64,000 nucleotides of DNA from an uncultured Candidatus Saccharibacteria bacterium. Its GTDB lineage: Bacteria; Patescibacteriota; Minisyncoccia; Phycocordibacterales; UBA918. Positions 17,082-40,674 of the stretch are shown piece by piece. Under the pieces are notes generated by a model, which searched no databases, was not told where the DNA came from, and saw only the letters and a list, made by a program, of their open reading frames with translations. The translations under genes were made by a program, and so were the position numbers. The stretch spans positions 399,672-463,671 of the forward strand of contig CAYNQD010000001.1 of the NCBI GenBank assembly GCA_964399295.1, in the 5' to 3' direction. Every line of letters starts with the position of its first letter. Within the stretch, counting starts at the first letter, position 1.

Positions 17082-17082
17082 T

Positions 17083-17967: not shown

Positions 17968-18445
17968 CCCCATTATTGGTGGGAGACAAGCAACCGTAAC
18001 GGGCAATACCCTAGAGCGATTTGTTGAACGTACCTTGCTTGATAATGGCTATTTAGAGTTTACGGGCAACCGAAAGCAACTATTTGAGAGCAGAGCCAAC
18101 GTAGGCGGAAAACAATATGCCAAACAAGTGCCTTGCGGTACGAGTATTTATGAAAGCCCCCGCAAGTGCGATTTTCTCATTATAAACAAAGAGAGGTTTC
18201 CAAATGACCTCATTATTGAGTGTAAATGGCAACAGAGTAACGGTAGTGTAGACGAAAAGTACCCCTTTACGCTTTTCAATATCATTAAAATCGGATTACC
18301 GACCATTATTCTGCTAGACGGTGGAGGTTATAAACGCACTGCTATGGAATGGCTTAAAAACCAAGTCAACCCTAACAGGGCTTTAATTGGTGTTTACAAT
18401 ATGTCCGAGTTTCAAGCCCTCGTTAACAAACGATTTTTAGGGTAA
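17879..18445 (+). CDS. Putative PD-(D/E)xK restriction endonuclease partner of the Dam-type MTase (start uncertain)
   Basis: CDFLII...IIECKWQ fits D...ExK nuclease core; lies immediately 3' of a Dam-type MTase inside the IS; ATG at 17879 overlaps the MTase by 89 nt, alternative TTG near 18032; stop codon lies in the right TIR. Confidence 0.45.
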   Translation: MKRYRLLASYRVNLINVEKKTSLSSEIINSPIIGGRQATVTGNTLERFVERTLLDNGYLEFTGNRKQLFESRANVGGKQYAKQVPCGTSIYESPRKCDFLIINKERFPNDLIIECKWQQSNGSVDEKYPFTLFNIIKIGLPTIILLDGGGYKRTAMEWLKNQVNPNRALIGVYNMSEFQALVNKRFLG

Positions 18446-18724: not shown

Positions 18725-18976
18725 CTACTTTTTTTCTTCTGACGGAGGAGCAAAGATTTCCTCCACCAACTTCAAAACCATCTCCTTCATAAACTCTGCC
18801 GCTTCGTCTGGATGAACACCTAGATCTGCAGCCATGTTCTTAATTTCATTGCGGGTACCCATACACAGATGGATTCCTTCCTCGCGAAAAGCGGCGTAAG
18901 CCACTCTCAGCGCGATTTTACCTTTGCGTTCTTCTGTCATCATATTTTTCTTCTCCAAAAAAATTGTGTGAATCAA
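18725..18976 (-). CDS. Small hypothetical protein
   Basis: 83-aa ORF (MMTEERKGKIALRVAYAAF...), no motif. Confidence 0.4.
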   Translation of the reverse strand: MIHTIFLEKKNMMTEERKGKIALRVAYAAFREEGIHLCMGTRNEIKNMAADLGVHPDEAAEFMKEMVLKLVEEIFAPPSEEKK

Positions 18977-19058: not shown

Positions 19059-21173
19059 ATGAATAAAACCAGACTATTTTACAAAAAAAGTGGCTTAGTT
19101 GGAGGTGTTTTATTTAAGTATAAATATTACCTATTAGGCACTCTGATTATAATATTTTCAATCTCCCTGTGGGCGGCCGCGAAAGAGGCTGACCGCCGGT
19201 ATCAGCCACTTCTCTCCGTGACTATCTTTGACAGAAACGGCGTTCCTCTCAGTATTAAAGAAAATAGTAAAGGTCATTACGTTAGCGCGATTGATGATGT
19301 GCCGGAAGATTTTAAGAAACTCCTCATTGTCAAAGAGGATGCGTATTTTTATTTTCATTTTGGAATAAATCCTTTCAGCAACGGGCGGGCGCTATATTCA
19401 TATCTTAAGAATAAGAGTGCCGGTGGTGCCAGTACCATCACGCAACAACTTTCCAAAAACCTCCTCGGCACCGAACTAGACAGAAATTTACCCAATAAAT
19501 GGCGTGAAGCTTTTTATGCTCTCGGTATTGAACTCTTTTACACCAAAGACGAAATCCTAACCATGTACGCCAATACCGCGTACCTTGGCAACCAAGTCCA
19601 AGGATTTGAAACCGGCAGTTATGCTTACTTTGGAAAAAGTTTGCAAGACACCACTCACAGTGAACAAATCGCTCTACTCGCCACCCTCTCCCAACCCAAC
19701 ATCCGCAATCCTTGGCAAGATAAAAACGCGGATTTTGCCGCCACTCTCAACCAAAGAATTTCACCAGAAGAAATTTTTGCAAAGCCGGAAACCACCAACA
19801 GCTACTCTTTTCAAAAAGAAGCTTTTTTTGAAATAAGAACGGCTGGTGTGATTTGTAAGCAAACTTGCCGCACCACTATTGATAACGACATAAGCGAACG
19901 TATCCGAGACATACTAAAAAGACATCTCGAAAGCGAGTGGGAGCGCGGCGCGAGAAATGGCGCAGTTGTAGTCATTGATCCAAAAACTTCTGAAATCCTG
20001 GCCTTGGTCGGAAGCAAAAATCCCAAGAGTACTGCCGGCGGCGATCAGATCAATATGGCTTTGGAGCCGCGCCCGATTGGTTCAACCATAAAACCTTTTA
20101 TATACCTTAAGGGGTTTGTGGACGACTTGCGCCCCTACACCCTCGTGGACGACCGAGAATATAAATATTCCATCGCCACCGGCTTTCCTCTCTATCCTAA
20201 AAATTATGATGGTCAATACCGTGGTGAAGTAACCCTGCACGAATCTCTGAGCAATAGCCTAAACGTACCTTCAGTGAAAGTATTGGAATTTATTGGCCTG
20301 CACAATTTCTACACTTTTCTCAGTGAAAAATTAAAATTCCAACCGCTACAAAATTATGACAGTTATCAGTATGGTATCGCGCTTGGCGGGCTGGAGATGG
20401 ATTTATTGACCCTGACGCATTACTTTACCATTTTCCCACGCCAGGGAACCATCGAGCCGATACGGATTCTTAAGGGTAATGCCGAGAATTATTCATTGCC
20501 TCCGCAGTCTGAAATAAAGAACCAGCAAATTGTAGCTGACAAAAAATTTGTACAGCTGGTTCACGCTATACTCCGCGACCGTCTCTCTGGCGTAAATCAA
20601 TTCGGTCTTAAAAGTACTCTCAACATTGAGGCTGGTGATTATGGAGTAAAAACCGGTACGTCGAGGGATTTTCATGACAGTTGGGTAGTAGGCTATACTG
20701 GCGATTTTGTGGTCGGAGTGTGGATTGGAAACACTGAAAACGAACCCTTAAAACAAGTCACCGGACAATCAGGAGCTGGAGCCGTGTGGCATGATGTCAT
20801 GAATATTTTACTCCAAACTCCAGACAACAAAAACACAACTTTACCGATTGATTCCCTAGCTCTGTTTCCAATCAAAAATTCAAATGAATGGGGATTGTTT
20901 GGTGATGACATTTCTGCTCACCGAAGGCTTCTACTTGATGAGAATATTATCCTGAGTCCGCACACGAATGATTCTTTTGAATTCTTTGCGGGCATGACTT
21001 TGCCTCTAATGGGAGCGCGGGCGGTGGAGTGGTTTGTGAATGGAAAGAGTCTGGGTAAAAAGCAAGCTACGGAATTCTCCCCTCAGACTACCGGCACCTA
21101 TGAAATCATGGCTACTGACGAAGAATCAAATACTCGTGAAATTATTAAAGTAAACATTACTGAGTCTCGGTGA
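19059..21173 (+). CDS. Class A penicillin-binding protein (GT51 transglycosylase + transpeptidase), PbpC/PBP1-like
   Basis: 704 aa; N-terminal TM; GT51 motif GGASTITQQL; transpeptidase SxxK (STIKPF), SxN (SLSNS), KTG (KTGTS); TGA stop. Confidence 0.9.
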   Translation: MNKTRLFYKKSGLVGGVLFKYKYYLLGTLIIIFSISLWAAAKEADRRYQPLLSVTIFDRNGVPLSIKENSKGHYVSAIDDVPEDFKKLLIVKEDAYFYFHFGINPFSNGRALYSYLKNKSAGGASTITQQLSKNLLGTELDRNLPNKWREAFYALGIELFYTKDEILTMYANTAYLGNQVQGFETGSYAYFGKSLQDTTHSEQIALLATLSQPNIRNPWQDKNADFAATLNQRISPEEIFAKPETTNSYSFQKEAFFEIRTAGVICKQTCRTTIDNDISERIRDILKRHLESEWERGARNGAVVVIDPKTSEILALVGSKNPKSTAGGDQINMALEPRPIGSTIKPFIYLKGFVDDLRPYTLVDDREYKYSIATGFPLYPKNYDGQYRGEVTLHESLSNSLNVPSVKVLEFIGLHNFYTFLSEKLKFQPLQNYDSYQYGIALGGLEMDLLTLTHYFTIFPRQGTIEPIRILKGNAENYSLPPQSEIKNQQIVADKKFVQLVHAILRDRLSGVNQFGLKSTLNIEAGDYGVKTGTSRDFHDSWVVGYTGDFVVGVWIGNTENEPLKQVTGQSGAGAVWHDVMNILLQTPDNKNTTLPIDSLALFPIKNSNEWGLFGDDISAHRRLLLDENIILSPHTNDSFEFFAGMTLPLMGARAVEWFVNGKSLGKKQATEFSPQTTGTYEIMATDEESNTREIIKVNITESR

Positions 21174-24100
21174 CAGTAATAATATCACCGGAAGTTCTAC
21201 CAAAAATTTCCGGAAAATAAAGTTCTTCGGCTCTGGCTGGCAGATGCTGGAACACACCCGGAACCAACGCTCGCAGATAGTACTCATATTCATACACACC
21301 GGGAGCAAGTCTTTCCATATAGAGAAATACCCTATCATCATGGGATTCAACGTGCGTGGGATAAAGCCTTCGCTTTCCTTTTGCGTAAGTACCGCCGGCG
21401 TTGGAAGCTCCATAAACCTGAGCGGTTTGGGAATTACTAAATATGTTTTTGACTGAAGCCAAGGCACTCACCACAAAACCCGAACTTCTGATAGACTGAT
21501 TAGCTCCATAGACTTCTGCCTGTTTTAATGATTGATCTTCAGTGCTTAAGTTGAAATTTACAATCTCAAATCCGGCCGGAATAAAATCCTCAATCGCTAC
21601 ATTTTTATACTCAGCCGGAATAGTGATGGTTAATTTTCCGCGAACAACATCCCCTACGGCCGCGGTCTTTATATTTTCCACACCACGCTCGCTACCTAGA
21701 GAGTGCAAGCTTCTGGTAATGGTAATACCTTCATCTCTTGGCGGCAACTCGTCTACCGGAAGATAATATTTGAGAGACATATCATAGTAGAGATTATTGG
21801 CCCGGCCATTTTTGTCCTCCTTCTCAAAAGCCAGTGGCAACAATTTCTCTTTCGGTAATTTATCAATGGAAATAAAGTGAGTGAAGGTTTCAAAAACAGT
21901 CTTGGGATTAAATTCAAAACCAAATATCTCCACCCCATCAAGCAAGCCGCGCAAAGTGAAATGTGATTCGGTTTCGTGTTGCCATTTCAGATAATCAACC
22001 AGCGCACTCACCACTACAAAGGTATTATGAGTACTGCCCCACACGCCTTTGTGGTCACGACTGGCTAAGAGCCAGCGAAGCATATTGGGCAAGGCTGCAT
22101 GCTCATCACTGTGAGCGGAAAACGCGGCCAAGGCAAGAGCGGTATTTTTAATCGGCGTTTCGTAGAAATCTCGGTTTGCATATTCAGCACTTGATAAATA
22201 AGCTCCACGACCATCAATATCAATGCGATTCTGAAATGCTTCATATACCCGATTACGCTCGCTACGGCTGTAGTCCTGCGCGGTCAAAATTGCGAGCTGC
22301 GCTAGCGCCATACTGCTGATTTTCTCATTCAGAAATGAATCGTCCTTAATGAGCGTAGCCACAATATCTGTAAGGGAGGTCTTTGTTTTGGGTGATACTT
22401 TTCTAAGAACCGCCTCCGCTAAAATCACGGCTTCATTATTTAGGGCAGGATACTGGGTGTATAAGCGCTTAGCTTCTGATTCAATATATCCAAGACCTCG
22501 ATTTAGCACATCTTCGCGCACTTCATATCCGGCCACCTTTAAATCATAAAGCGCTGACACCACGTGTATGGTGAGCGATAGATTGGCATTAAGTCCTTTG
22601 TAGTACGCAAAACCACCATTCACGGTTTGGGATTCATACACTTGCTTGAGACCATCAGCCACCACAGCGTCCACTGTGTATGTTACTCCTTCATGTTTGA
22701 TGGTATCAAATTCTCCGGCAACATTTGGTAGCATGAGCGCTTTGGTTAAAATTCCAATAGTACTAAGAGAGCTGGCCAATTGCTCACTGCAGCCATACGG
22801 ATACGTCACCATATACGAAAGAGCATCACTCATAAAAACAGCCATGGTAGCATTGGCGTTGATGGTAAGTCCACCTTCACCCGCCACCACAGTATCCGGC
22901 ACGTATAAATACTCGACCACAGTGTTGTCTTTTGTGGAATTGGCCGTGGCTACTGTTTCGTAAGTAGTATTGGGTGTTATGACAATAGACTGCTCGACAC
23001 TATCGACAAAAGTCTTGGCTTTATCGGCAGCCGTAAACGTAAACAGATGTTCTCCAGCTCTTTTGTCTTCAGGCGCTTCCACCGCAAAGTAAACGGTTTT
23101 TGATTCGCCGGAATTTATACGAATAGACTTAGAAGTACTTTCCTTGAAGCTGAGAGTTTGGCTTTCAAGGACAACAGTAATATCTCTATCTGTAGCCGTC
23201 TGATTGAACACTTTTGCTCCCAAAGAAAACTTATCTCCCGGCACCACAAAGCGAGGCTTGAGCGGTACGGCCATCAAGTCTTTTTTGGTGGTGAATTCTT
23301 GATAATCAACACCGAGCTTGGTGTCTTTTGTTACGCCGAGTGATTCTACTTGCCAGGTGGTTAGATTATCAGGCAAGGTGAAAGTAACGCTCGCCTCACC
23401 GTTTTGATTAGTTTCCACTGACGCTTCCCAAAAAGCTGTGTCCTTAAATATTCCCCGCTTTTTATTGGCCAAATCATCCGGCGCTCCTCCGCCGCCTTTA
23501 GTACCAAGCGGCACATCCACTTCATGAAGAATATTTTTGATGTTGCTAGCGGTAGAAACAGACAGTGGAAAATCGTTGTAGAAAAATATTAAAGGATTCT
23601 TCTTCGGATTTCCTTTCAGGGCCAACACTGAGAGATCAGCCACAGCAATCGAAACCTCAGCCGGAACCCCTTGTCCCAAGTGATTTTTGGTTTTAACGGT
23701 AAGCCTCACCTCTTCACCTGGCAAGTAGTGGGTTTTATTGGCCTTCACTTCCACAGAAAGTTCTTTTTCTTCCATGCCAATGCTGTAAGTCACACTTCCG
23801 TACTTCACTTCCGGATCAGGCGATAACAGTAAAACCGATACGTGCATATTGGGCGCGTAGCTGCTTTTAATTGGAAATCTGTGCGCATGAAGCCCGCCCA
23901 CGACATCGACAATCCAGTAATCGTACACAGTTCCTCGTTCTACCGAAATGAGAGCTTTTGCTTTTGGATAGGGAGACTTGATTAAAATTGAGGCCTCATC
24001 GCCAACATTCAAATCAGTTTTTTCAACCTCAATGTCAAGTTCGTAATTATTATTGGGTGGTACCGTCACTGACCCCGAACCGTAAATATACACGTTAGTA

Positions 24101-27100
24101 GTGGTTTTGAGGTTATTACCTCTGTTATCAGTACCGCCGACATGCACCTCATATTGACCTTCACCAGACAACACGAGGCTGCCATTCCAGTCGCCACGAT
24201 TGTCGGTCTTAATTTTTTCCCGACTTATTTCTGTCAGTTTTTTCTCAGACCGATAGTAAAACCCGCCATCAACTTCCTGCCGCTTGAAAGTTTCCCACTC
24301 GACTTTATAGAGAGTTTTTTCGAGGTTGTTTATTGATAGCGGTTTACCTTCCGTATCCACGGTCTTCACGCGCAGTGTATTGGCTGAATTAACACTAGTG
24401 TAATATTTGTCGGTTTTTACGCCCAAATAAAATTCCCCCTTATGAACGATAAAGGATTTCTGCAGAGAAACAGACCGGCCGTTGATATCTTTTGCCGTCA
24501 CAAAAACATTGATAAGCTTGCTGCCTTCATTTTCTACGTCATCAAAATAATCATTGAAATTTAATTCGCGCTCAATGGTGGCGTACCCATTTTCATTGAT
24601 TGTCGTTTCGCCTCTAAACAGGAAATTGTCGCCATACCCGCATGAGTAGCAATAGTACCACCCGCCACCGAAATTGAAGTAATCATCGGTGTAGCGATCA
24701 AAATAATAATCTTGCGCCGTCACGGAATACGAGATAGCCCCCTCATCAAGCGGAACACCGAAATAATAATCAGCCTGAATATCAATCTTAAAGGTGTCAC
24801 CATTTATGTACTCCTCTTTGTCGGTGATGGCTTCTACCTTGAAAGCGGCGGGAACATATTCTTCCACGTCAAAATAGAAACTCTGACCAAACACTTCAAT
24901 CCGGTAGGTTCCGAGAGGAGCTTCGCTTGGAATATCAAGCTTAGTTGAAAAAGTACCGTAAAGATTTTGCTCGAGATTTGTGTCGTAGATTCTAGCGCCT
25001 TGTGAATTAAAAACTTCCAAGGAAACTTTCTCCCGATTCCAGACTTCATACTCTCCATCAAAACCAACACGGTCAATACCTCTTATATGCACGGTATGCC
25101 CGGGGCGATAAATAGGCCTATCTGTGTAGACGTAAGTCTTGGAAGAGTCCTGTGCCTGACTAGCATAACGTAGTGTATCCGCCCAATCAGTAACAACAGC
25201 ACTATCAAGTCCTGATCTAATTACGGCACCGACCAACCCTTGATGAATCGCGGTACGCGCAATACCTTGACCATCGGTAACTCCGGAAGTCTTTTGTTCA
25301 AAACTGCGATTGTAGCCACCTGTGTATTGCGTCACCATCGCCCCCGCCACCGGCTGCAGAGTTTTACTATTATTCACCCAGTAGAGATTATTAGACGCGT
25401 TCAATTCTTTAGTCAAGACATTGGACTTGCTTGGGTTTTTGGAAATACTCCAAGCTTGGTCGGAATATTCAATTTCTTTTTTGCCTACCGCCAGATTGGT
25501 AACGCTTACATACGTCCGATCATGCAATTGACGCTTACCGCCGTATGATTCTTTGTACAGCGGATTGCTGAAAGTCAAAATATAATGCCCGCGCGTATCA
25601 GAAAAATATTCAGCCAGATTGACTTGAAAATAATTATTGACCCAGTACCTAGCCGGCAAAGGTAATTGTTTGCTTACCACCTCAGAGCAACCCTCACTAC
25701 TCGCCGGTGTGTACTGACTATCACGATCAACGGTTCGCTCCAAAAAAGTATCCGGACTCATTTTGCAAATATGCATGTCCACGTATTCCAGATTTTCAAC
25801 AGCGTAAGTGAGCTTGGTCTTGTCTGGCGAAGTCACGTTGTATTGCTGTTGCATGTTGTGGAAACGAGTATACTGCTCTTTTGGCGGACTGGTTTTAAAA
25901 GATAGTTGACTAGAAGCTAACTGCCCAAAAACATCACTCAGTTTTAACTGCAAACTATAATCTGTCTCCGGCAACAAACCATAAGACAATCTAGTTTCAA
26001 ATTCTCCCACTTGGCACCTGCTATATGTATTCTCCGATTCAATATAAGAAGAATTAGACCATCTTCCAAAAACTATGTAGCCGTCGGTTTGAACGTAAGA
26101 ACTCAAACCGGCATCTTCAGGATTTTGCAAAGGAGTATTGGAACAAATGGTCAAGCCGTCAATATCCGCGCTTTCTGATTGATTTTGCGGAAGGGTGCGG
26201 AGAATTTGAAATGGCGGATGGGTTTTGAGCGCGATATTTATTGGCTCGGCATTGATACGGAAACCGTCTTTTGTGAGAATCTTCTTTAGTTCAAGATTAA
26301 AGGATTCATTGGTAGAAAACGCGCTCTGCTCAAAAGAAAAAATCAAAGTCTTGGTGTCAGGCTCTTTTTCACAAGAAGACCCAAGCCTTATCGGTTCTCC
26401 CCTTTCATCAGTCCGACAGCGTTCTCCGTAAGAAACATTCTTTAGTCCTTTAGCTTCTATACTCGACTTATCTTTGTCGATAGTGTCAAAAAATACCACC
26501 TTGACTGTACCTCGCGGATCAATCAAATCCGGCCGCACCAATGAAGTGCGATTTGACTCCGCTGTAACACTATCAACGATATTGGGCACGGAAACAACAA
26601 AATTTTTCCCTTCTTCCAGATTCATCGTGCCAAGGAGCGGCACAGCGCCTGCCACCGAAACATTATAAGTAGTATCAAAATCCCACAGCTGGCTTCGCCC
26701 ATGCTTATCTTTTTTCTGGTAGACAAATAACTTGCTTTTGTCTCCAGTGGTGATATATTTGCGCGCATTTCTGTCGTAATAGGTAACTTCCCCATACCGA
26801 ACATCAACCGCCACCTTACCACCATCTTGTTTTGACACCGTGATATTTTTTTCAGTTTTACCAAGATCAACCGGCTGATTGAATGAAATAATTATGGGTG
26901 AACTATATCCCACTTTTTCCGTAGAGACATTTTCATATCGTAAAGGACGCGTAACGAAAGTGTGGGTCATAGAAGCGACCGGCAAACCATCAAGCGAATA
27001 AAGACCACTTTTCACTTCAACGGTATACTTTGAAGACGGTACAAGCGTAGTCTCGGGTACAAACTGCAAATTCCTAGTACTTATCCATTTAAATTTACCA

Positions 27101-27645
27101 GGTGTTGGCGGCGAGATGGTAATCGGTAATTCACTCATCTCCTGCTTGGCCAGAGTGGTAAGCGGAATCATTGGACGGTTGAAAACAATGGTGATTTCGC
27201 TATCTTCATGAGTCTCACTCTCTGCCGCCGGAAAGATGGTTTCAATTTTCGGGTCTTCATCGACATAAAAATCTCCCGACATTTTGACAGTCTCCGTGTC
27301 CATATTGACCGCGTAGTAGACCTTGGTCCGAAGCGGTTTTTTGGGTTTAAATAAAACCACCCCTTCCAGTTCTTCTACTTGCCAGTCGCCTTCAATCTCC
27401 GGACTAAAAGTGATGGCCGCGCGCGCAGTGTCTTCACTCACTCCCTTAGGGAGATTTATCTGAATAGCCGCGCTTTTAGAAATCTTTTCCGGAACAAAAG
27501 AATAGACATTTGTAAACTGCTTAACGGCAACATGCCTATCCGGTGTAATAAAAAATAATACCAATCCAACGACAAAAAATAACGCCAACAGAGAAAAAAG
27601 TGTCTTCTTGCGACTTAGGATTTCTAATATATGCTGTTTAGACAT
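21157..27645 (-). CDS. Bacterial alpha-2-macroglobulin family protein (thioester-containing, MG-domain protease inhibitor)
   Basis: 2162 aa; N-terminal membrane anchor; thioester motif YPYGCSEQLASSLS; long beta-rich MG-domain region; converges on and overlaps the PBP gene 3' end by 17 bp. Confidence 0.88.
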   Translation of the reverse strand: MSKQHILEILSRKKTLFSLLALFFVVGLVLFFITPDRHVAVKQFTNVYSFVPEKISKSAAIQINLPKGVSEDTARAAITFSPEIEGDWQVEELEGVVLFKPKKPLRTKVYYAVNMDTETVKMSGDFYVDEDPKIETIFPAAESETHEDSEITIVFNRPMIPLTTLAKQEMSELPITISPPTPGKFKWISTRNLQFVPETTLVPSSKYTVEVKSGLYSLDGLPVASMTHTFVTRPLRYENVSTEKVGYSSPIIISFNQPVDLGKTEKNITVSKQDGGKVAVDVRYGEVTYYDRNARKYITTGDKSKLFVYQKKDKHGRSQLWDFDTTYNVSVAGAVPLLGTMNLEEGKNFVVSVPNIVDSVTAESNRTSLVRPDLIDPRGTVKVVFFDTIDKDKSSIEAKGLKNVSYGERCRTDERGEPIRLGSSCEKEPDTKTLIFSFEQSAFSTNESFNLELKKILTKDGFRINAEPINIALKTHPPFQILRTLPQNQSESADIDGLTICSNTPLQNPEDAGLSSYVQTDGYIVFGRWSNSSYIESENTYSRCQVGEFETRLSYGLLPETDYSLQLKLSDVFGQLASSQLSFKTSPPKEQYTRFHNMQQQYNVTSPDKTKLTYAVENLEYVDMHICKMSPDTFLERTVDRDSQYTPASSEGCSEVVSKQLPLPARYWVNNYFQVNLAEYFSDTRGHYILTFSNPLYKESYGGKRQLHDRTYVSVTNLAVGKKEIEYSDQAWSISKNPSKSNVLTKELNASNNLYWVNNSKTLQPVAGAMVTQYTGGYNRSFEQKTSGVTDGQGIARTAIHQGLVGAVIRSGLDSAVVTDWADTLRYASQAQDSSKTYVYTDRPIYRPGHTVHIRGIDRVGFDGEYEVWNREKVSLEVFNSQGARIYDTNLEQNLYGTFSTKLDIPSEAPLGTYRIEVFGQSFYFDVEEYVPAAFKVEAITDKEEYINGDTFKIDIQADYYFGVPLDEGAISYSVTAQDYYFDRYTDDYFNFGGGWYYCYSCGYGDNFLFRGETTINENGYATIERELNFNDYFDDVENEGSKLINVFVTAKDINGRSVSLQKSFIVHKGEFYLGVKTDKYYTSVNSANTLRVKTVDTEGKPLSINNLEKTLYKVEWETFKRQEVDGGFYYRSEKKLTEISREKIKTDNRGDWNGSLVLSGEGQYEVHVGGTDNRGNNLKTTTNVYIYGSGSVTVPPNNNYELDIEVEKTDLNVGDEASILIKSPYPKAKALISVERGTVYDYWIVDVVGGLHAHRFPIKSSYAPNMHVSVLLLSPDPEVKYGSVTYSIGMEEKELSVEVKANKTHYLPGEEVRLTVKTKNHLGQGVPAEVSIAVADLSVLALKGNPKKNPLIFFYNDFPLSVSTASNIKNILHEVDVPLGTKGGGGAPDDLANKKRGIFKDTAFWEASVETNQNGEASVTFTLPDNLTTWQVESLGVTKDTKLGVDYQEFTTKKDLMAVPLKPRFVVPGDKFSLGAKVFNQTATDRDITVVLESQTLSFKESTSKSIRINSGESKTVYFAVEAPEDKRAGEHLFTFTAADKAKTFVDSVEQSIVITPNTTYETVATANSTKDNTVVEYLYVPDTVVAGEGGLTINANATMAVFMSDALSYMVTYPYGCSEQLASSLSTIGILTKALMLPNVAGEFDTIKHEGVTYTVDAVVADGLKQVYESQTVNGGFAYYKGLNANLSLTIHVVSALYDLKVAGYEVREDVLNRGLGYIESEAKRLYTQYPALNNEAVILAEAVLRKVSPKTKTSLTDIVATLIKDDSFLNEKISSMALAQLAILTAQDYSRSERNRVYEAFQNRIDIDGRGAYLSSAEYANRDFYETPIKNTALALAAFSAHSDEHAALPNMLRWLLASRDHKGVWGSTHNTFVVVSALVDYLKWQHETESHFTLRGLLDGVEIFGFEFNPKTVFETFTHFISIDKLPKEKLLPLAFEKEDKNGRANNLYYDMSLKYYLPVDELPPRDEGITITRSLHSLGSERGVENIKTAAVGDVVRGKLTITIPAEYKNVAIEDFIPAGFEIVNFNLSTEDQSLKQAEVYGANQSIRSSGFVVSALASVKNIFSNSQTAQVYGASNAGGTYAKGKRRLYPTHVESHDDRVFLYMERLAPGVYEYEYYLRALVPGVFQHLPARAEELYFPEIFGRTSGDIITVTETQ

Positions 27646-27650
27646 AGGTT

Positions 27651-30600
27651 TTAGTAATCAAACGTGCCCCGCCCATCAAGTTCCACCGCTGGAGTCTGAC
27701 ATCCTACAAGCATATTAAGGAACTTATTGGTTGTCTTGTATTTGTAGCCGGTGCCGGAGGTTAGACCCCACGGCTTGAGCATTGTGTCACTGAAAGTCTG
27801 CTGAAAATTCTTGAGTGAAATGTCGAGAGAATTGTCGAATGTATTATTGACAACCCCAGAGTAAAAACCGAGTTCGGTCAGGAGAGTTTTTGTCTTTACA
27901 ACTTCGGTAGACACGGGATTCTCGGTAAGGCTGTTGTGTTCGGTAAACGCTGGACAAGTTATGCTGGCGCTACAATAAAACGAATTAATCTTCATCAGCG
28001 TTGTACGGTATACATAGCCTGTGGGTTCGGCAACACCCCAAACATTTAGTACCTCACTGGCATATTTTTGCTGAAATCGCTTCACCGCTTCCATGTCCTC
28101 AAGAGAATACACACCATCAACTGCCAGTGCTTCTCCTTGCTTTTCATTGAGGAATGTTTCGAGTTTTCTTACGTCTTCCACATCATTATCAGCACCGTAA
28201 CGAATATACGTCTTTATGTGTGGCGCACATACACTATCAACGGCGACGGACTTGGTTGGAATAGGTTGGGTTGTGTCGGATTGCGCGATTTTATATTGAC
28301 AAAGCTCTTGCTTATGGCTGGTGAAATGGTTGTAGTTTGAAGCCTTGGGATCCTTGCAGCCGAAGGTAATTCCACTCATTCTTGTTGAAGATCGTCCGTT
28401 GGTTTCATTATTGTCCCCTGCCAGAGCCAAGCTATTGCCGAAAATTGCAAAAATTGAGAAGTGCGGAGCAGTACAAGTGATAGTATTCGTGGCAGTATTG
28501 ACTGAACAATTATCGAGCTCCTGCCACACACCGCCCGCGTAGTGATACATCGAAAGCGAATTTTCATCAAGACCATTCACGTCCGCGTCGGTATAAGTAT
28601 AAGAAATTGTAACGGGATGGTCGAAAGAATCGAGTTCCGTGACGTTATTTACCAGCGCCTTCACATCGAAGACAACACTAGCGGCGCTACTCAGACTGCT
28701 AAACGGTTTCCCGATAGAACCGAGTACAGTAGCAGAATCGAGTCCCTTGATTTGGATAACGATTGATGCCCAATCATCAGTAAAGCCCGCGGGTGCATCG
28801 ACAGTGAAGGCGCGTCCGCTGTTGGTTCCGGTCACTACCGTTGGTGCGCTTACATTGATACTGTTTGAGATTACAGAAGAAGGTACGGCACCGCCAGAGC
28901 AACCTGTGGTAAGGAAAGTTGACGGACTGGAAGTTGCGTAGTTGCCATCTTCGTCAGCTGAGATGACTTTAAAATTGTAGAGCGTGCAGGCAAGAAGATT
29001 CGAAATGGACTTTGAGTGTTCGAGCACGCCGGAATCCGTATCGGTTTCGCTTGTCGAAGACGCATACTGATTATCAGTCGAATACACAACTTTGGTAGAC
29101 GCAAGCTCATCTGTCAGCCAAGTAATCGTAGCTCCTGAGGTACCTGGAAAAGTTTCGATATCCGATATAACAGGGACAGCACCCACGCTGCCAATAGCAT
29201 TGAAAGTGACCGTATTACCAACACCATACAAGGTAGCTGTTACCACATGTTCCCCCAGGCTATTTAATGTCCATCCTCCGCTAAAAGTCGCGGTACCGGA
29301 ACTGTTGGTTTGCACAGTTGTAGGAGCACCAAGCAAACCGGTACCTGAAGTAATCGCAAATACAACATCCGCCCCAACAACATCATTACCTTCCTCGTCA
29401 GACACACGTACTACCAAATTATCATTGAGAGTTTGATTTAGTTCTGCCTGAAGAGTACTTGTCGGTGATACTTTAATCATGGACTCAGCGATATCGGGCT
29501 CTGCGTCTTCTAGTATATCAATGGTAAACACCGCCGTCGGACTAGTATACCCAGCATCCTCGATTGTAAGCTCAAACTCACGAACGGCTTCATTAGGTGC
29601 TGAATTGTAGTACTGCAGAGCGTTGAGCAAAGCTTCGTACTGCGCCCGAGTGTTTTTCCCAGCGCCATCCTTGGTAAAAGTGAGAGTCTTCACTGCGCCG
29701 GCCGTGCTGGACGCGTATTTCCATGGAACTCCAGCGAGCGAGAAAGTACCACCAGCCTTATTACTGAGCGAAATAGACATGTCAACACCGTCAATCAGGA
29801 GTCTCTCGCCGGGCTGAATGGAGGCAAGAGTATAATTGATTTTTAGGTTGTCGATAGTACCGCTCACGATAGGTGCCGGATCATTCAAAAATTCACCGGG
29901 GTTGCCAGGATTGGACAATCCTGTCGTCAAGGGAAAGATTTCTCCGTTTTCGCTAAAAGTAATTGGTTCTCCGGAGAATTCAATTGTCCTATCCTTTTCT
30001 CCCAAGGAAAGAGTTAATTCCGGAGTTCTTGTCATCTCAGGAGGACTCGCCCACTGCGGACCGAGAGCAAACTGCAGACCAAAGGTTGAAGCATTGCTAT
30101 AAGAACCCATACTAATCTCAAAAACGCTCAATTCGTCGTAAAGCACCCTCACGCGGAAACGGTCTCCAGCCGCGGTACCAGGTGCTTGATTGTTGTTTAG
30201 GTTGGTGAGAGAAACAAATGTTGTTAGTCCAGTCAGGGCATTGTAGCTGGGGTACAGTACGGACGGAGATTCATACGGATCTAAGGTACCCGTGCTTAGC
30301 TCACTCAACTGAAAGCCGCCAAACTCAGTAAACTGATTGACCGCCCCATCGGAAAATGTCGGCGGTGTAAAATTCAAAGTCGGATGCGAACCAGTTGGGG
30401 CCGTGCTGCCCGTACCGTCAATATCGAAGGAGTTGACCGCGACATTTTGAAGTCTCAGCGGCGTATCGTCAGCTTGATTGATAAAACTAAACTCAAGCTT
30501 GATGTGACCTCGCACATTTGAACCTCCACCAGACGCACCGGTGGTCAAAATAAACCAATTCGCCTGATTGGCGGCAGATACGCACTGATTTGGATTTCCA

Positions 30601-30935
30601 CTACTGGTATCTGTACACACAACATTACTGCTGGAACCAGGATCAAAGTCAGCAATAGTCCGATTGGTCATCTCCTTTATTTCCACGATAGCTCTGACAG
30701 TAGTGGTTGGAGAACCCACCGCTATCACATTGTCATAACGATATTTCGCACCCACCGTAAGAGCACCTGAGCCAGTACCATTTATATATGTCCCACCAGT
30801 GAAATTAAGTTGCTTAAACTCCGTATCATAAATCGGCGCCAGCTGCGCCTCAGATTTCTGTGGCGCAAAAGAAAAAGCGATTATAAAAATGAGACTATAG
30901 GCGATAGAAATTCTCATGTATATGCATTGTAGCAA
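27651..30935 (-). CDS. Large secreted surface protein with Ig/FN3-like beta domains and two C-terminal peptidoglycan-binding (PG_binding_1-like) domains
   Basis: 1094 aa; signal peptide; T/S/G-rich beta modules shared with the 1256-aa paralog (GCKDPKASNYNHFTSHKQELCQY block); C-terminal DGVYSLEDMEAVKRFQQ and ELGFYSG...NFQQ PG-binding-like repeats; 5 bp upstream of A2M gene. Confidence 0.7.
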   Translation of the reverse strand: MLQCIYMRISIAYSLIFIIAFSFAPQKSEAQLAPIYDTEFKQLNFTGGTYINGTGSGALTVGAKYRYDNVIAVGSPTTTVRAIVEIKEMTNRTIADFDPGSSSNVVCTDTSSGNPNQCVSAANQANWFILTTGASGGGSNVRGHIKLEFSFINQADDTPLRLQNVAVNSFDIDGTGSTAPTGSHPTLNFTPPTFSDGAVNQFTEFGGFQLSELSTGTLDPYESPSVLYPSYNALTGLTTFVSLTNLNNNQAPGTAAGDRFRVRVLYDELSVFEISMGSYSNASTFGLQFALGPQWASPPEMTRTPELTLSLGEKDRTIEFSGEPITFSENGEIFPLTTGLSNPGNPGEFLNDPAPIVSGTIDNLKINYTLASIQPGERLLIDGVDMSISLSNKAGGTFSLAGVPWKYASSTAGAVKTLTFTKDGAGKNTRAQYEALLNALQYYNSAPNEAVREFELTIEDAGYTSPTAVFTIDILEDAEPDIAESMIKVSPTSTLQAELNQTLNDNLVVRVSDEEGNDVVGADVVFAITSGTGLLGAPTTVQTNSSGTATFSGGWTLNSLGEHVVTATLYGVGNTVTFNAIGSVGAVPVISDIETFPGTSGATITWLTDELASTKVVYSTDNQYASSTSETDTDSGVLEHSKSISNLLACTLYNFKVISADEDGNYATSSPSTFLTTGCSGGAVPSSVISNSINVSAPTVVTGTNSGRAFTVDAPAGFTDDWASIVIQIKGLDSATVLGSIGKPFSSLSSAASVVFDVKALVNNVTELDSFDHPVTISYTYTDADVNGLDENSLSMYHYAGGVWQELDNCSVNTATNTITCTAPHFSIFAIFGNSLALAGDNNETNGRSSTRMSGITFGCKDPKASNYNHFTSHKQELCQYKIAQSDTTQPIPTKSVAVDSVCAPHIKTYIRYGADNDVEDVRKLETFLNEKQGEALAVDGVYSLEDMEAVKRFQQKYASEVLNVWGVAEPTGYVYRTTLMKINSFYCSASITCPAFTEHNSLTENPVSTEVVKTKTLLTELGFYSGVVNNTFDNSLDISLKNFQQTFSDTMLKPWGLTSGTGYKYKTTNKFLNMLVGCQTPAVELDGRGTFDY

Positions 30936-31035
30936 TTAAGCCTAATAACTTATATGAGAAGCCAGTGGATAAAGATTTTGAATTACGATCAGCTTACCCA
31001 AACAACGCGTCTTGAAGATAATTCGAACATAAAAT

Positions 31036-31066
31036 AAAAGCATCCTGCAGGATGCTTTTATTTTAT
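31036..31066. terminator. Bidirectional rho-independent terminator
   Basis: Perfect palindrome AAAAGCATCCTG|CAGGATGCTTTT flanked by A/T runs. Confidence 0.75.
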
Positions 31067-39252: not shown

Positions 39253-39634
39253 AACAAAACTGCTTGAACACCTCAAGGACTCCGGCAACGTCAGCTACGC
39301 CTGCAAGCGAGCAGGTATTTCTCGCGAAACCTACTACAAGTGGCGCAGGAGCAAAGTATTCGCTGAGGAAGCTGATGTGGCAATCGACCTTGGTAAAGAG
39401 TTTGTGAATGACTTGGCGCACACGCAACTCATTCAAAACATTCAGCAGGGACACATGGGTGCGGTGAAGTTTCAGCTGGCTAGCTGTCACATAGACTACC
39501 AAGCGAGAAAACCATGGCCTCGTGAACTACCAACTGCTCCGCCTCCAGTAACCGAGATTCATATCCATCCAGCCGAACCGATGGAAGTGCGAGAACAACA
39601 AGCGAAGAAGCGAGCGGAGGCTAAAGATCACTAG
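39206..39634 (+). CDS. HTH DNA-binding protein, phage terminase small-subunit-like
   Basis: 142 aa; SYACKRAGISRETYYKWRR helix-turn-helix typical of terminase small subunit/transposase-like HTH. Confidence 0.45.
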   Translation: MARKSSDPKERSKRFKTKLLEHLKDSGNVSYACKRAGISRETYYKWRRSKVFAEEADVAIDLGKEFVNDLAHTQLIQNIQQGHMGAVKFQLASCHIDYQARKPWPRELPTAPPPVTEIHIHPAEPMEVREQQAKKRAEAKDH

Positions 39635-40364: not shown

Positions 40365-40674
40365 TTTTCCCTACTAGGATTTAGTTGTGCGGAACCTTCA
40401 GGTAATCAAAAGGCTCCCAGCCATCGCGATCCAACCTTTCGGCCAGACCCATACCTGTTTCCAGATATGACCTAGTAGAGTGACTCTGACTGGGAGTCCT
40501 TTGATCTCTACTAGGTTTTTGCGCCATACCTTAGGAAACCCTAAGGGTTAGGCGACTATATTCAATTGTCGTACGAGTACATAATACCAAAATCGGTATC
40601 ATTTGGCACTTTAGCTTACATTCGGAGCTTTGCGAAGTAGCTGTTACCAACACATTCACGTATACTCTATAACC

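What the first reader, a model, noticed from the sequence alone, without database searches (positions are those of the whole stretch)
19059..30935. Alpha-2-macroglobulin / class A PBP / PG-binding surface protein cluster with unusual convergent overlap
A 2162-aa bacterial alpha-2-macroglobulin (thioester GCSEQ) lies next to a class A PBP, echoing the well-known pbpC-A2M (yfhM) association proposed to protect and repair the cell envelope. Here the two genes converge and their 3' ends overlap by 17 bp rather than forming a co-directional operon. The A2M gene is instead co-transcribed (5-bp gap) with an upstream 1094-aa surface protein that has two peptidoglycan-binding domains. The arrangement suggests a rearranged periplasmic/envelope defence module anchored to peptidoglycan.
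Basis: partly seen in the sequence, partly recalled or inferred. Interest (0 to 1): 0.6.

Follow-up and report, generated by a model that had tools for sequence, protein, structure and literature searches.

The report
Tail-to-tail macroglobulin–PBP1C pair in CPR bacteria
A giant membrane-anchored protease-trap protein (alpha-2-macroglobulin) and a PBP1C-like cell-wall synthase sit tail-to-tail with overlapping stop codons, and this odd arrangement is the conserved norm across the ultra-small, single-membrane Patescibacteria (CPR), not a local accident.

Summary
The three ORFs, the 17-bp 3' overlap and the 5-bp gap are all as described.

- **A2M:** the 2162-aa protein is a thioester (Type I) bacterial alpha-2-macroglobulin. 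It has MG2, bMG6, BRD, A2M and bMG10 domains and the motif YPYGCSEQ. Its best solved relatives are E. coli YfhM and Salmonella A2M.
- **PBP:** the 704-aa protein is PBP1C-like. Its best NCBIfam model is PBP_1c, it is collinear with E. coli PbpC, and it carries a BiPBP_C-type C-terminal domain.
- **Source:** the window comes from a Patescibacteria/CPR genome.

The interpretation needs correcting on three points.

1. The convergent arrangement is not a local rearrangement. In 80 species-level relatives, 61 of 69 informative loci have the same tail-to-tail arrangement. In 31 of the 61 the stops overlap or lie at most 7 nt apart. No other neighbour is conserved.
2. The upstream 1094-aa peptidoglycan-binding surface protein is a near-orphan. 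It is absent from all relatives and is not part of the module.
3. CPR are considered monoderm, and this A2M has a transmembrane anchor instead of a lipobox. It also has about 450 extra N-terminal residues of Ig-like domains and an unusually conserved bait segment.

This is a new variant of the known A2M–PBP1C envelope-defence pair.

The parts
19059..21173 (+). PBP1C-like bifunctional class A penicillin-binding protein (704 aa). It has an N-terminal TM helix, a glycosyltransferase domain (E93, E150), a transpeptidase domain (S342-x-x-K345, S400-x-N402, K531-T-G533) and a C-terminal beta domain.
   Evidence: Pfam Transgly 139.7 bits and Transpeptidase 65.4 bits. Best NCBIfam model is TIGR02073 PBP_1c at 379 bits, below its 494 cut-off. 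The catalytic residues are invariant in 48 relatives. hhalign against E. coli PbpC gives probability 100. AF2 model: pLDDT 85, pTM 0.80.
20844..21170 (+). C-terminal BiPBP_C-like beta-sandwich domain of the PBP (residues ~596-704)
   Evidence: Pfam BiPBP_C scores 18.1 bits in the window protein, below the gathering cut-off. It is detected in 23 of 48 family members, best E 4.9e-8. A profile of this domain matches E. coli PbpC residues 713-761. The AF2 model is all-beta over 600-701.
21157..21173 (.). 17-bp overlap of the two convergent 3' ends (TTA = reverse complement of the A2M stop ... TGA = PBP stop)
   Evidence: The same -17 overlap occurs in 5 relatives and -14 in 4. In total 14 of 61 loci overlap and 31 of 61 are within 7 nt. 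No intrinsic terminator lies at the junction.
21157..27645 (-). Type I (thioester) bacterial alpha-2-macroglobulin, 2162 aa, anchored by a TM helix
   Evidence: Pfam Big_5, MG2, bMG6, A2M_BRD, A2M and bMG10. Collinear with E. coli YfhM from residue 834 (YfhM 385) to the end at 21% identity. Best PDB hits are YfhM (5a42, 4ziq, 4rtd) and Salmonella A2M 4u48. A further 426 homologues were found, all ~2200 aa among the 120 listed.
27544..27600 (-). N-terminal signal-anchor TM helix of the A2M (residues ~16-34); no lipobox cysteine
   Evidence: Read from the translation. Relatives have a 40-60 aa cytoplasmic tail followed by one hydrophobic helix.
25147..27540 (-). N-terminal string of about 7 Ig/MG-like beta-sandwich domains (residues 36-833), roughly 450 aa longer than the corresponding part of E. 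coli YfhM. It contains six conserved cysteines (C410, C425, C501, C544, C627, C653), possibly forming disulfides.
   Evidence: AF2 model with pLDDT 88.3, all-beta. In Foldseek the best compact match is 4zjg (ECAM MG0-NIE-MG1), TM 0.56; other hits are Ig-domain strings. Invariant cysteines are listed.
23434..23592 (-). Bait-region equivalent (residues 1352-1404, ...FPLSVSTASNIKNILHEVDVPLGTKGGGGAPDDLANKKRGIFKD...), unusually conserved
   Evidence: It aligns to ECAM residues ~913-963, which include the bait R923-L942 and the F947-N963 segment (PMC4498604). Top-residue frequency is 0.84 against a protein mean of 0.64 in 119 homologues. In 69 species-level relatives it is 0.735 against 0.551, ranking 76 of 2110 windows.
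22780..22791 (-). Thioester motif C1619-S-E-Q1622 within YPYGCSEQ
   Evidence: CxEQ is present in 110 of 120 homologues and 60 of 69 species-level relatives.
27651..30935 (-). Lineage-specific secreted surface protein (likely start 30917). It has a signal peptide, a Big_1-like Ig domain and two divergent C-terminal PG_binding_1 repeats (28041-28238 and 27756-27953). It is adjacent to the conserved module but not part of it.
   Evidence: It has only 5 homologues in 5.8e9 proteins and is absent from all 80 related loci.
31031..31059 (-). Perfect 10-bp hairpin (AAAAGCATCC-TGCA-GGATGCTTTT) followed by ATTTTAT, downstream of a 26-codon ORF. It is a likely terminator that insulates the surface-protein/A2M unit from upstream transcription.
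   Evidence: Read directly from the sequence. It was not listed by the pattern scan, so this part is inference.

Best explanation
The core feature is a two-gene cell-envelope module that is conserved across Patescibacteria (CPR). One gene encodes a ~2200-aa thioester alpha-2-macroglobulin. It is tethered to the outer face of the cytoplasmic membrane by an N-terminal TM helix and held on a long stalk of Ig-like domains. The other gene encodes a PBP1C-like bifunctional peptidoglycan synthase, also anchored by an N-terminal TM helix.

By homology with E. coli ECAM and Salmonella A2M, the expected mechanism is as follows. A protease cuts the bait segment, the protein changes conformation, and the Cys-Gln thioester covalently captures the protease. 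The PBP1C-like enzyme polymerises and cross-links peptidoglycan in the same wall zone. Together they would protect and repair the wall of a cell that has no outer membrane and lives attached to other microbes.

The two genes are kept tail-to-tail, with stop codons abutting or overlapping, and they are inherited together. The linkage is therefore maintained by selection on the pair (joint function, possibly physical interaction) and not by co-transcription.

Shown here: domain architectures, catalytic and thioester motifs, anchoring type, the conserved convergent synteny and co-inheritance. Inferred: protease trapping, wall repair, the stalk role of the N-terminal extension, and any regulatory consequence of the overlap. 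The upstream PG-binding surface protein is a lineage-specific neighbour that may be co-transcribed here but does not belong to the module.
For: **A2M identity.** Pfam architecture. Collinear alignment with YfhM. PDB hits to YfhM and SaA2M. YPYGCSEQ includes both protective tyrosines, and the C-terminal MG domain carries HDDR and EELY where ECAM has RDDR and ExMY (motifs from PMC4498604).

**PBP identity.** The best model is PBP_1c. A family profile scores E. coli PbpC at 220.8 bits as one collinear stretch, against MrcA at 207.5 bits in three pieces and MrcB at 188.5 bits. BiPBP_C is found in 23 of 48 relatives. The TG and TP catalytic residues are invariant.

**Synteny.** There are 80 species-level loci from many CPR lineages. 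Of these, 61 are convergent and immediately downstream, 3 co-directional downstream, 1 co-directional upstream and 1 divergent. Three lack a PBP within the flank, and 11 have too little flank to tell. Of the 61, 14 overlap and 31 are within 7 nt.

**Internal control.** The next most common neighbour family occurs in only 16 loci. Even the closest relative (83% A2M identity) shares nothing else in place. Genes inserted between the pair are all singletons.

**Co-inheritance and ancestry.** A2M and PBP identities to the window correlate (Pearson r = 0.95, 61 pairs). The exceptions are nested among convergent relatives, so convergent is ancestral.

**Anchoring and envelope.** The A2M has a TM helix and no lipobox. 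CPR are treated as monoderm. A Vampirococcus study already proposed a defensive role for A2M-domain membrane proteins in a CPR bacterium (PMC8080830).
Against: - No biochemical or expression data exist for any CPR member, so the function is transferred from proteins that are only ~21% identical.
- The bait-equivalent segment is among the most conserved parts of the protein. That does not fit a fast-evolving broad-spectrum bait.
- About 10% of family members lack the thioester cysteine.
- The PBP is below the TIGR02073 equivalog cut-off, and its own BiPBP_C score is below the gathering threshold.
- The physiological role of PBP1C is unresolved even in E. coli.
- Convergent genes with no terminator between them should interfere with each other's transcription, which is odd for partners needed at the same time.
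Confidence: 0.62

Rival explanations
1. Complement-like reading: the A2M is not a general protease trap. A specific, conserved protease (the cell's own or the host's) cuts the conserved bait, and the exposed thioester then couples covalently to a target surface. This could tether the epibiont to its host cell or tag a host envelope component. PBP1C would remodel the wall at the contact site.
For: The bait-equivalent segment is as conserved as the thioester segment (0.735 and 0.737, against a mean of 0.551), and it contains an invariant G-T-K-G-G...K-R-G pattern. That fits a specific cleavage site better than a promiscuous one. The protein is membrane-anchored on a long Ig-like stalk, so it could bridge two cells. 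CPR are episymbionts (PMC8080830). From established knowledge, the A2M superfamily includes C3 and TEPs, which tag surfaces after specific cleavage.
Against: The closest characterised relatives (ECAM, SaA2M) are protease traps (PMC4498604, PMC5764988). Conservation of the segment could instead reflect intramolecular contacts: in ECAM, F947-N963 docks on the C-terminal MG domain after cleavage. There is no candidate activating protease among conserved neighbours.
Confidence: 0.12
2. The tail-to-tail overlap is itself a regulatory device. Without a terminator between them, each transcript runs antisense into the other gene. Expression of the A2M and the PBP would then be reciprocally tuned by transcriptional interference or antisense RNA, and this keeps the pair convergent.
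For: Stops overlap or lie within 7 nt in 31 of 61 loci, leaving no room for terminators. No intrinsic-terminator-like site lies at the window junction, and folding there is only weakly above background (z = -2.4 and -1.3). The convergent orientation persists across deep divergence, while only about 4 lineages flipped it.
Against: In 12 of 61 loci, unrelated genes or 0.3-5 kb of DNA lie between the two genes without the pair separating. In 4 loci the genes are co-directional. In E. coli they form a co-directional, directly abutting pair. The orientation is therefore not indispensable. Tight packing is also typical of small CPR genomes. No transcript data were available.
Confidence: 0.15
3. Passive relic: the adjacency has no functional meaning. 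An ancestral operon acquired from a diderm donor was inverted once, and the pair has simply not yet been separated.
For: The A2M-pbpC juxtaposition is known in Gram-negative bacteria (PMC5764988, PMC3328433). A single ancestral inversion would explain the shared orientation.
Against: All other neighbours have been shuffled, even between relatives with 83% identical A2Ms. Yet the pair stays together in 66 of 69 informative loci, across lineages whose A2Ms are only 36-45% identical to the window protein. Insertions occur at the junction without dispersing the pair. The same pairing holds independently in Proteobacteria.
Confidence: 0.08
4. One reading: a three-gene, peptidoglycan-anchored periplasmic defence module (surface protein, A2M and PBP) created by a local rearrangement.
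For: There is a 5-bp gap between the surface-protein gene and the A2M gene with no terminator between them. The surface protein has two PG_binding_1-like repeats.
Against: The surface protein is absent from all 80 relatives and nearly orphan. PG_binding_1 tails occur on two other unrelated large secreted proteins in the window. The convergent arrangement is ancestral, not local. No outer membrane is expected.
Confidence: 0.03

Closest known systems
Type I bacterial alpha-2-macroglobulin with PBP1c: E. coli YfhM (ECAM)-PbpC and Salmonella SaA2M (Budd et al. 2004 model; structures 4ziq, 4rtd, 4u48)
   Same: Same protein pair: a thioester CxEQ A2M with MG domains, BRD, TED and a C-terminal MG domain, next to a PBP1C-type class A PBP. 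Both proteins are anchored to the cytoplasmic membrane. The Y-P-Y-G-C-x-E-Q pocket is conserved, and the C-terminal MG domain keeps DDR and E-x-(M/L)-Y motifs.
   Different: - E. coli has co-directional genes that abut directly; here they are convergent with overlapping stops.
- ECAM is a lipoprotein with a signal peptide and lipobox (PMC3328433); here there is an N-terminal TM signal anchor.
- The protein is ~2200 aa against 1653 aa, with about 450 extra N-terminal residues of Ig-like domains.
- The bait is strongly conserved.
- The host is a monoderm CPR bacterium, so the 'outer-membrane breach' rationale does not apply.
- Sequence identity to ECAM is only ~21%.
Type II bacterial A2M (Pseudomonas aeruginosa MagD, mag operon; E. 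coli YfaS)
   Same: A large bacterial macroglobulin with a bait region, associated with the inner membrane (PMC5764988). JGI labels several CPR relatives 'YfaS (alpha-2-macroglobulin family)'.
   Different: Type II proteins lack CxEQ and sit in a six-gene operon with MagA-F. The CPR protein has CxEQ, has no mag-like neighbours and is paired with PBP1C. The JGI 'YfaS' label is only a COG-level name.
A2M-domain membrane proteins of the CPR predator Vampirococcus lugosii (Vamp_6_203, 2368 aa; Vamp_19_245, 1895 aa)
   Same: Large membrane proteins with A2M domains in a CPR bacterium, proposed to defend against host proteases (PMC8080830).
   Different: That paper mentions only the domain and a possible role. 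The passage read makes no link to PBP1C, gene orientation, thioester, bait or distribution. Whether those proteins belong to this family was not tested here.
Eukaryotic thioester proteins (complement C3/C5, A2M, A2ML1, CD109, insect TEPs)
   Same: Shared MG, TED and CTMG architecture and thioester chemistry. There are weak direct sequence hits to A2ML1, A2M, C5 and C3.
   Different: The eukaryotic proteins are soluble or GPI-linked, have different N-terminal domain counts, and have no PBP partner. C3 and C5 are activated by specific convertases. That is the feature which the conserved CPR bait might resemble, but this was not tested.

Membership tests
Type I (thioester) bacterial alpha-2-macroglobulin (YfhM/ECAM family) | MG-domain keyring with bait-region domain, thioester domain and C-terminal MG (bMG10) domain | tested here: met
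   Pfam MG2 65.6, bMG6 28.3, A2M_BRD 82.7, A2M 72.1 and bMG10 87.7 bits, all above cut-off; TED 17.6 bits is weak. Collinear BLAST alignment to YfhM over residues 834-2146. Top PDB hits are YfhM and SaA2M.
Type I (thioester) bacterial alpha-2-macroglobulin (YfhM/ECAM family) | CxEQ thioester motif with the two protective tyrosines (Y-P-Y-G-C-x-E-Q) | tested here: met
   YPYGCSEQ at residues 1615-1622. Present in 110 of 120 homologues and 60 of 69 species-level relatives. The tyrosine roles are taken from PMC4498604.
Type I (thioester) bacterial alpha-2-macroglobulin (YfhM/ECAM family) | Conserved RDDR and ExMY motifs in the C-terminal MG domain that shield the thioester | tested here: met
   The window protein has HDDR (D2103, D2104 and R2105 are invariant in 9 diverse relatives) and EELY aligned to ECAM ESMY. 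The motifs are present with R->H and M->L substitutions.
Type I (thioester) bacterial alpha-2-macroglobulin (YfhM/ECAM family) | Signal peptide followed by a lipoprotein box (lipid anchor in the inner membrane) | tested here: not met
   The N-terminus is MSKQHILEILSRKKTLFSLLALFFVVGLVLFFITPDRH, one hydrophobic helix with no cysteine. Relatives have a 40-60 aa tail plus a TM helix. The ECAM lipobox is described in PMC3328433.
Type I (thioester) bacterial alpha-2-macroglobulin (YfhM/ECAM family) | Exposed, sequence-variable multi-protease bait region | tested here: inconclusive
   A segment aligns with the ECAM bait, but it ranks in the top 4% most conserved windows of the protein. Disorder, exposure and cleavage could not be tested.
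Type I (thioester) bacterial alpha-2-macroglobulin (YfhM/ECAM family) | Covalent trapping of proteases after bait cleavage | not testable with these tools
   Requires biochemistry.
A2M-pbpC operon of Gram-negative bacteria | pbpC adjacent to the thioester A2M gene | tested here: met
   Adjacent in the window and within 10 kb in 66 of 69 informative relatives.
A2M-pbpC operon of Gram-negative bacteria | The two genes are co-directional and co-expressed as an operon | tested here: not met
   Convergent in the window and in 61 relatives, co-directional in only 4. E. coli yfhM and pbpC are on the same strand and abut directly. The operon statement comes from PMC5764988.
PBP1C (PbpC; TIGR02073 / COG4953) | Class A PBP with glycosyltransferase and transpeptidase domains and intact catalytic residues | tested here: met
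   E93, E150, S342, K345, S400, N402 and K531-T-G533 are invariant in 48 relatives. The AF2 model matches PBP1b and PBP2 structures.
PBP1C (PbpC; TIGR02073 / COG4953) | Closer to PbpC than to PBP1A or PBP1B, without the ODD/UB2H insertions | tested here: met
   TIGR02073 at 379 bits beats the PBP_1a family at 307 and PBP_1b at 223. The family HMM scores PbpC at 220.8 bits in one collinear stretch, against MrcA split into three and MrcB at 188.5. JGI names relatives PbpC/PBP1C.
PBP1C (PbpC; TIGR02073 / COG4953) | C-terminal BiPBP_C domain (PF06832) | tested here: inconclusive
   The window protein scores 18.1 bits, below the gathering cut-off of 26.8. However, 23 of 48 relatives match at E <= 0.01, best 4.9e-8. 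The conserved C-terminal profile aligns to PbpC 713-761, and the AF2 model shows a beta domain at 600-701. The feature is met at family level but sub-threshold for this sequence.
PBP1C (PbpC; TIGR02073 / COG4953) | Score above the NCBIfam equivalog cut-off | tested here: not met
   379.2 bits against a cut-off of 494.2, with the match covering model positions 10-549 of 728. The protein is best described as PBP1C-like, not as an equivalog.
PG_binding_1 wall-associated surface proteins (upstream 1094-aa ORF) | PF01471 peptidoglycan-binding domain(s) | tested here: met
   The whole protein scores 33.8 bits against a cut-off of 23, but no single stretch is significant. The two repeats align with clear PG_binding_1 domains of the proteins at 32915-35653 and 48636-52406.

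The most novel reading that the evidence does not exclude
The CPR macroglobulin may be a complement-like, specifically activated covalent coupling device and not a broad protease trap. Its bait is as conserved as its thioester, which suggests one dedicated activating protease. On its long Ig-like stalk it could covalently tether or tag the host cell surface of these episymbionts. The obligatorily linked PBP1C would remodel the wall at the contact site, and the overlapping tail-to-tail genes would provide reciprocal antisense control.
Probability: 0.1. Interest if true: 0.85.

Novelty: new variant of a known kind. Interest (0 to 1): 0.55.

Why it matters
The A2M–PBP1c pairing has been explained for twenty years as a periplasmic defence that acts when the outer membrane is breached, and neither the partnership nor the role of PBP1C has been tested properly. 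Here the same pair is retained across a huge radiation of bacteria that are thought to have no outer membrane. It is retained in the opposite relative orientation, while every other neighbour is shuffled.

This is strong comparative evidence that the two proteins are functionally tied at the protein level and not through a shared transcript. It also shows that the outer-membrane-breach rationale cannot be the whole story.

The finding defines a distinct A2M subtype with four differences from the E. coli form:
- a TM anchor;
- about four extra Ig-like domains;
- a conserved bait;
- a length of ~2200 aa.

In CPR episymbionts, surface proteins are believed to mediate host contact. The finding also gives a rare example of a deeply conserved convergent gene pair with overlapping stop codons, which is useful for studying transcription termination and antisense effects in compact genomes.

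Tried and rejected
1. **Third conserved partner gene.** I clustered all ORFs of 81 loci. Only the A2M and the PBP are shared. MltG/YceG is next, in 16 loci. Genes lying between the pair are all singletons.
2. **Homologues of the upstream surface protein.** Only 5 were found in 5.8e9 proteins and none in related loci, so it was rejected as a module member.
3. **Shared or bidirectional terminator at the junction.** The pattern scan found none there, and its totals did not exceed shuffles (13 sites against 12.6 ± 3.7). Folding gave z = -2.4 and -1.3 and no U-tract.
4. **NCBIfam naming of the A2M.** No model matched.
5. **Structure-based PBP1C test.** afdb50 was not available, and the PDB holds no PBP1C chain. 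The C-terminal domain could therefore be tested only by sequence profiles.
6. **First attempt to model the PBP.** I redid it with database homologues.
7. **hhalign of the PBP family against E. coli PbpC.** It aligned only TG+TP (positions 45-587) and not the C-terminal domain. A separate C-terminal profile gave a weak match.
8. **Literature.** Searches for A2M in Patescibacteria/CPR found only the Vampirococcus remark. No description of the convergent pair was found in the searchable library; subscription journals are not covered.
9. **Assembly artefact.** Rejected, because identical contigs occur in independent assemblies.

Full report
**1. Checking the observation**

- a 704-aa ORF at 19059-21173 (+);
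- a 2162-aa ORF at 21157-27645 (-);
- a 1094-aa ORF at 27651-30935 (-, TTG start).

The first two converge and share 17 bp (21157-21173, TTACTGAGTCTCGGTGA). The two minus-strand genes are separated by 5 bp. The surface-protein ORF most likely starts at the ATG at 30917 (MRISIAYS..., a signal peptide). Upstream of it lies a perfect 10-bp hairpin with a T-rich tail (31031-31059). The identical three-gene arrangement is present on two independent Logan assemblies, and the A2M occurs on an NCBI contig of 594 kb. The arrangement is therefore real and not an assembly artefact.

**2. The three proteins**

*The A2M.* The 2162-aa protein matches Pfam Big_5, MG2, bMG6, A2M_BRD, A2M and bMG10 above their cut-offs, and TED weakly.
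- It aligns collinearly with E. coli YfhM (ECAM) from residue 834 (ECAM 385) to the C-terminus at about 21% identity.
- Its best solved relatives are ECAM (5a42, 4ziq, 4rtd) and Salmonella A2M (4u48).
- The thioester motif is YPYGCSEQ, which includes the two tyrosines that shield the thioester in SaA2M and ECAM.
- The C-terminal MG domain carries HDDR and EELY where ECAM has the conserved RDDR and ExMY (motif roles from PMC4498604).

*The PBP.* The 704-aa protein has Transgly and Transpeptidase domains.
- Its best NCBIfam model is TIGR02073 PBP_1c at 379 bits, ahead of the PBP1A family (307) and PBP1B (223), though below the equivalog cut-off of 494.
- A profile of 48 relatives scores E. coli PbpC best, at 220.8 bits in one uninterrupted stretch. 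MrcA is split into three pieces and MrcB scores 188.5.
- hhalign to PbpC gives probability 100.
- The C-terminal ~105 residues are conserved in the family. They are recognised as BiPBP_C in 23 of 48 members, best E 4.9e-8; the window protein itself scores 18 bits, sub-threshold. They model as a beta domain.
- JGI annotates many relatives as PbpC or PBP1C.
- All glycosyltransferase and transpeptidase catalytic residues are invariant.

The PBP is PBP1C-like, so the second refutation criterion is also not met.

*The upstream protein.* It has a signal peptide, a Big_1-like domain and two divergent PG_binding_1 repeats.

**3. Source organism**

- All close A2M homologues that carry a name come from Paceibacteria/Parcubacteria.
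- The genome scan returned only MAGs, nearly all titled as Patescibacteria/CPR lineages. A few carry Gammaproteobacteria, Coprothermobacterota or plain 'bacterium' titles.
- The window carries a LOOT RNA.
- CPR are treated as a monoderm clade (bioRxiv 10.1101/2021.05.31.446380).
- In line with this, the A2M lacks the signal peptide and lipobox of ECAM (PMC3328433). It begins instead with a single hydrophobic helix. Relatives have a 40-60 aa cytoplasmic tail followed by one TM helix.

'Periplasmic' is therefore probably the wrong word. Both proteins are bitopic membrane proteins whose large domains face the wall zone.

**4. Synteny: the main result**

A degenerate-pattern scan of one genome per species found 229 confirmed relatives of the A2M. 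The best 80 loci were fetched with up to 10 kb of flank. They span many CPR lineages, including Paceibacteria, Kaiser-, Adler-, Nomura-, Lloyd-, Sung-, Ryan-, Taylor-, Nealson- and Staskawiczbacteria. They also include Morani-, Magasanik-, Falkow-, Woese-, Doudna- and Peregrinibacteria.

tblastn and ORF analysis gave these arrangements:

| Arrangement of the PBP1C-like gene relative to the A2M | Loci |
|---|---|
| Downstream, opposite strand (convergent) | 61 |
| Downstream, same strand | 3 |
| Upstream, same strand | 1 |
| Upstream, divergent | 1 |
| No PBP within the available flank | 3 |
| Too little downstream sequence to tell | 11 |

So 61 of 69 informative loci (88%) share the window's arrangement. 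Among the 61:
- 14 have overlapping stops (-26 to -4 nt; -17 in five, -14 in four);
- 31 lie within 7 nt;
- 49 lie within 200 nt.

The window's 17-bp overlap is thus typical of the family.

Four further results bear on why the pair stays together.
- *Internal control.* After clustering all ORFs of the 81 loci, only the A2M (81 loci) and the PBP (68 loci) are shared. The next family occurs in 16 loci.
- *Closest relative.* Even the relative with an 83% identical A2M keeps nothing else in place. Some shared genes (methyltransferases, a serine recombinase) are present but rearranged.
- *Insertions.* Where DNA has been inserted between the two genes, the inserted ORFs are unrelated singletons.
- *Co-inheritance and ancestry.* A2M and PBP identities to the window proteins are tightly correlated (Pearson r = 0.95, 61 pairs), as expected for co-inheritance. 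The few non-convergent loci are nested among convergent relatives, so convergent is ancestral and the exceptions are a handful of derived events.

By contrast, E. coli yfhM and pbpC are co-directional and abut directly. The literature describes the pair as an operon (PMC5764988).

**5. The upstream surface protein is not part of the module**

- It has 5 homologues among 5.8 billion clustered proteins, the best at 53% identity over half its length.
- It is absent from all 80 related loci.
- Two other large secreted proteins in the window also end in PG_binding_1: 32915-35653, with LamG, Big_5 and BNR, and 48636-52406, with LamG and DUF11. This domain is the organism's general wall-attachment tag.
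- The window's A2M is about 40 residues shorter at its N-terminus than its relatives, and an in-frame stop lies 12 nt upstream of its ATG. This is consistent with the surface-protein gene having been placed directly in front of it.
- Co-transcription across the 5-bp gap is plausible, since there is no terminator-like site, but it was not tested.
- In 13 relatives the gene directly upstream of the A2M, on the same strand, is MltG/YceG, a peptidoglycan glycan-strand terminase (Pfam 272 bits; 16 loci carry the family). This is a second, lineage-restricted link to wall synthesis.

**6. What distinguishes the CPR A2M**

*Anchoring.* It uses a TM helix and not a lipid anchor (section 3).

*Size.* It is about 2200 aa against 1653 aa. 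The extra ~450 residues are N-terminal.
- An AlphaFold2 model of residues 36-840 is confident (pLDDT 88) and entirely beta, forming a string of about seven Ig/MG-like domains.
- Foldseek matches Ig-domain strings in general. Its best compact match is ECAM MG0-NIE-MG1 (4zjg, TM 0.56).
- I infer that this is an extended stalk holding the trap away from the membrane. That is inference only.
- Six cysteines in this region are invariant, as expected for an exported protein.

*Bait.* The segment that aligns with the ECAM bait (R923-L942) and the adjoining F947-N963 is among the most conserved parts of the protein.
- Top-residue frequency is 0.84 against 0.64 in 119 homologues.
- It is 0.735 against 0.551 in 69 species-level relatives. 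That equals the thioester segment and ranks 76 of 2110 windows.
- The consensus reads GNPKKnPl.FFY.GfPLtV.TasN.KNiL.e..ip.gTKGGgG...dLA.kkRG.FkdTAfW.
- From established knowledge of the family, A2M baits are variable, so this is unexpected and remains unexplained. Two readings are possible: the segment is constrained by intramolecular docking (in ECAM, F947-N963 binds the C-terminal MG domain after cleavage), or the protein responds to a specific, conserved protease.

*Thioester loss.* Roughly 10% of family members have lost the thioester cysteine.

**7. How it most likely works**

By homology, the A2M is a membrane-tethered, thioester-dependent protease trap displayed in the wall zone. The PBP1C-like enzyme is an active bifunctional peptidoglycan synthase. 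The pair is retained across Proteobacteria and CPR in different orientations and against a background of complete neighbour turnover. This argues for selection on joint function at the protein level: protection plus repair of the wall, and perhaps direct contact, as speculated for ECAM and PBP1c in PMC3328433. It argues against coupling through a shared transcript.

A Vampirococcus study had already suggested a defensive role for A2M-domain membrane proteins in one CPR bacterium (PMC8080830). I found no description of the PBP1C link or of the convergent arrangement in CPR.

The junction has no terminator, and most relatives have no spacer at all. Each transcript therefore probably extends antisense into the other gene. 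Whether this is used for regulation is open. Loci with inserted DNA or with co-directional genes show that it is not indispensable.

**8. Verdict**

This is a new variant of a known system. The Type I A2M-PBP1C pair, known from Gram-negative bacteria as a co-directional operon encoding a lipoprotein A2M, exists throughout the monoderm Patescibacteria in a different form. There it is a tail-to-tail pair, often with overlapping stops, and it encodes a TM-anchored, N-terminally extended A2M with a conserved bait.

Interest is moderate. The finding does not reveal a new kind of system. It does undercut the outer-membrane-breach rationale, it gives strong comparative evidence for a protein-level partnership, and it provides a clear set of experiments.

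Noticed in passing
window 40428-40554 (-): LOOT RNA (Rfam RF03000) at 87.4 bits against a gathering score of 46.4, covering the full model. It lies in the intergenic space between ORFs at 39621-40364 (-) and 40630-41256 (+).
   Followed up: no
window 16167-18445 (+): A mobile or restriction-modification island lies directly upstream of the PBP gene. It comprises an IS1595-family transposase (16167-17081), a D12-class Dam-like adenine methyltransferase (17083-17967) and a PDDEXK_11 nuclease (17879-18445). Between this island and the PBP gene lies a 72-aa ORF with no family match (18725-18943, -). That ORF has a strong terminator hairpin at 18666-18643.
   Followed up: partly
window 27651-30935, 32915-35653, 48636-52406 (all -): Three large secreted proteins with unrelated N-terminal parts (Big_1-like; LamG+Big_5+BNR; LamG x2+DUF11) all end in PG_binding_1. 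This looks like the organism's generic non-covalent wall anchor for surface proteins.
   Followed up: partly
L029:269-1309, and the same position in L037, L039, L050, L053, L054, L056, L064, L065, L068, L069, L078, L082: In 13 of the 80 relatives, an MltG/YceG endolytic transglycosylase gene sits directly upstream of the A2M on the same strand (gaps of 2-195 nt). In several of these it is preceded by a protein-L-isoaspartate-methyltransferase-like gene (identified by eye from the sequence, not run against a profile library). This gives a lineage-restricted mltG-A2M><PBP1C arrangement.
   Followed up: partly
window 23434-23592 (-), A2M residues 1352-1404: The bait-equivalent segment is as conserved as the thioester segment across the CPR family, with an invariant G-T-K-G-G...K-x-R-G...F-K-D-T-A-x-W pattern. 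This is the opposite of what is expected for an A2M bait and is unexplained.
   Followed up: partly
window 27600-27660 (-): The window's A2M lacks the ~40-residue cytoplasmic N-terminal tail present in relatives (2162 aa against ~2200 aa). An in-frame stop lies 12 nt upstream of its ATG, and the surface-protein gene ends 5 nt upstream. This is consistent with that gene having been inserted at, or having displaced, the original 5' end.
   Followed up: partly
window 30917-30935 (-): A TACAAT box ends 8 nt upstream of the ATG at 30917, the likely true start of the surface-protein gene, and no Shine-Dalgarno-like sequence is visible. The mRNA may be leaderless or have a very short leader.
   Followed up: no
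P0001-P0120 and loci L003-L082: About 10% of family members have lost the thioester cysteine (YPYG[F/S/N/G]xEQ, or no motif found) while keeping the full length. These may be Type II-like derivatives arising within a Type I family.
   Followed up: no
window 37218-39252 (+), 44948-46240 (+); L003 5746-7726, 18735-20087: N6/N4 DNA methyltransferase genes and a large serine recombinase have homologues near the A2M-PBP pair in the closest relative (43-58% identity), but at different positions and orientations. This region of the genome is recombinationally active.
   Followed up: no
L042, L043 (contigs JBBIIY010000005.1, JBBIUB010000006.1): Two MAGs titled 'Coprothermobacterota' carry this CPR-type A2M with a co-directional PBP1C. 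Their A2Ms are each other's closest relative in the set. Either the bins are mislabelled or the pair occurs outside Patescibacteria in the co-directional form.
   Followed up: no
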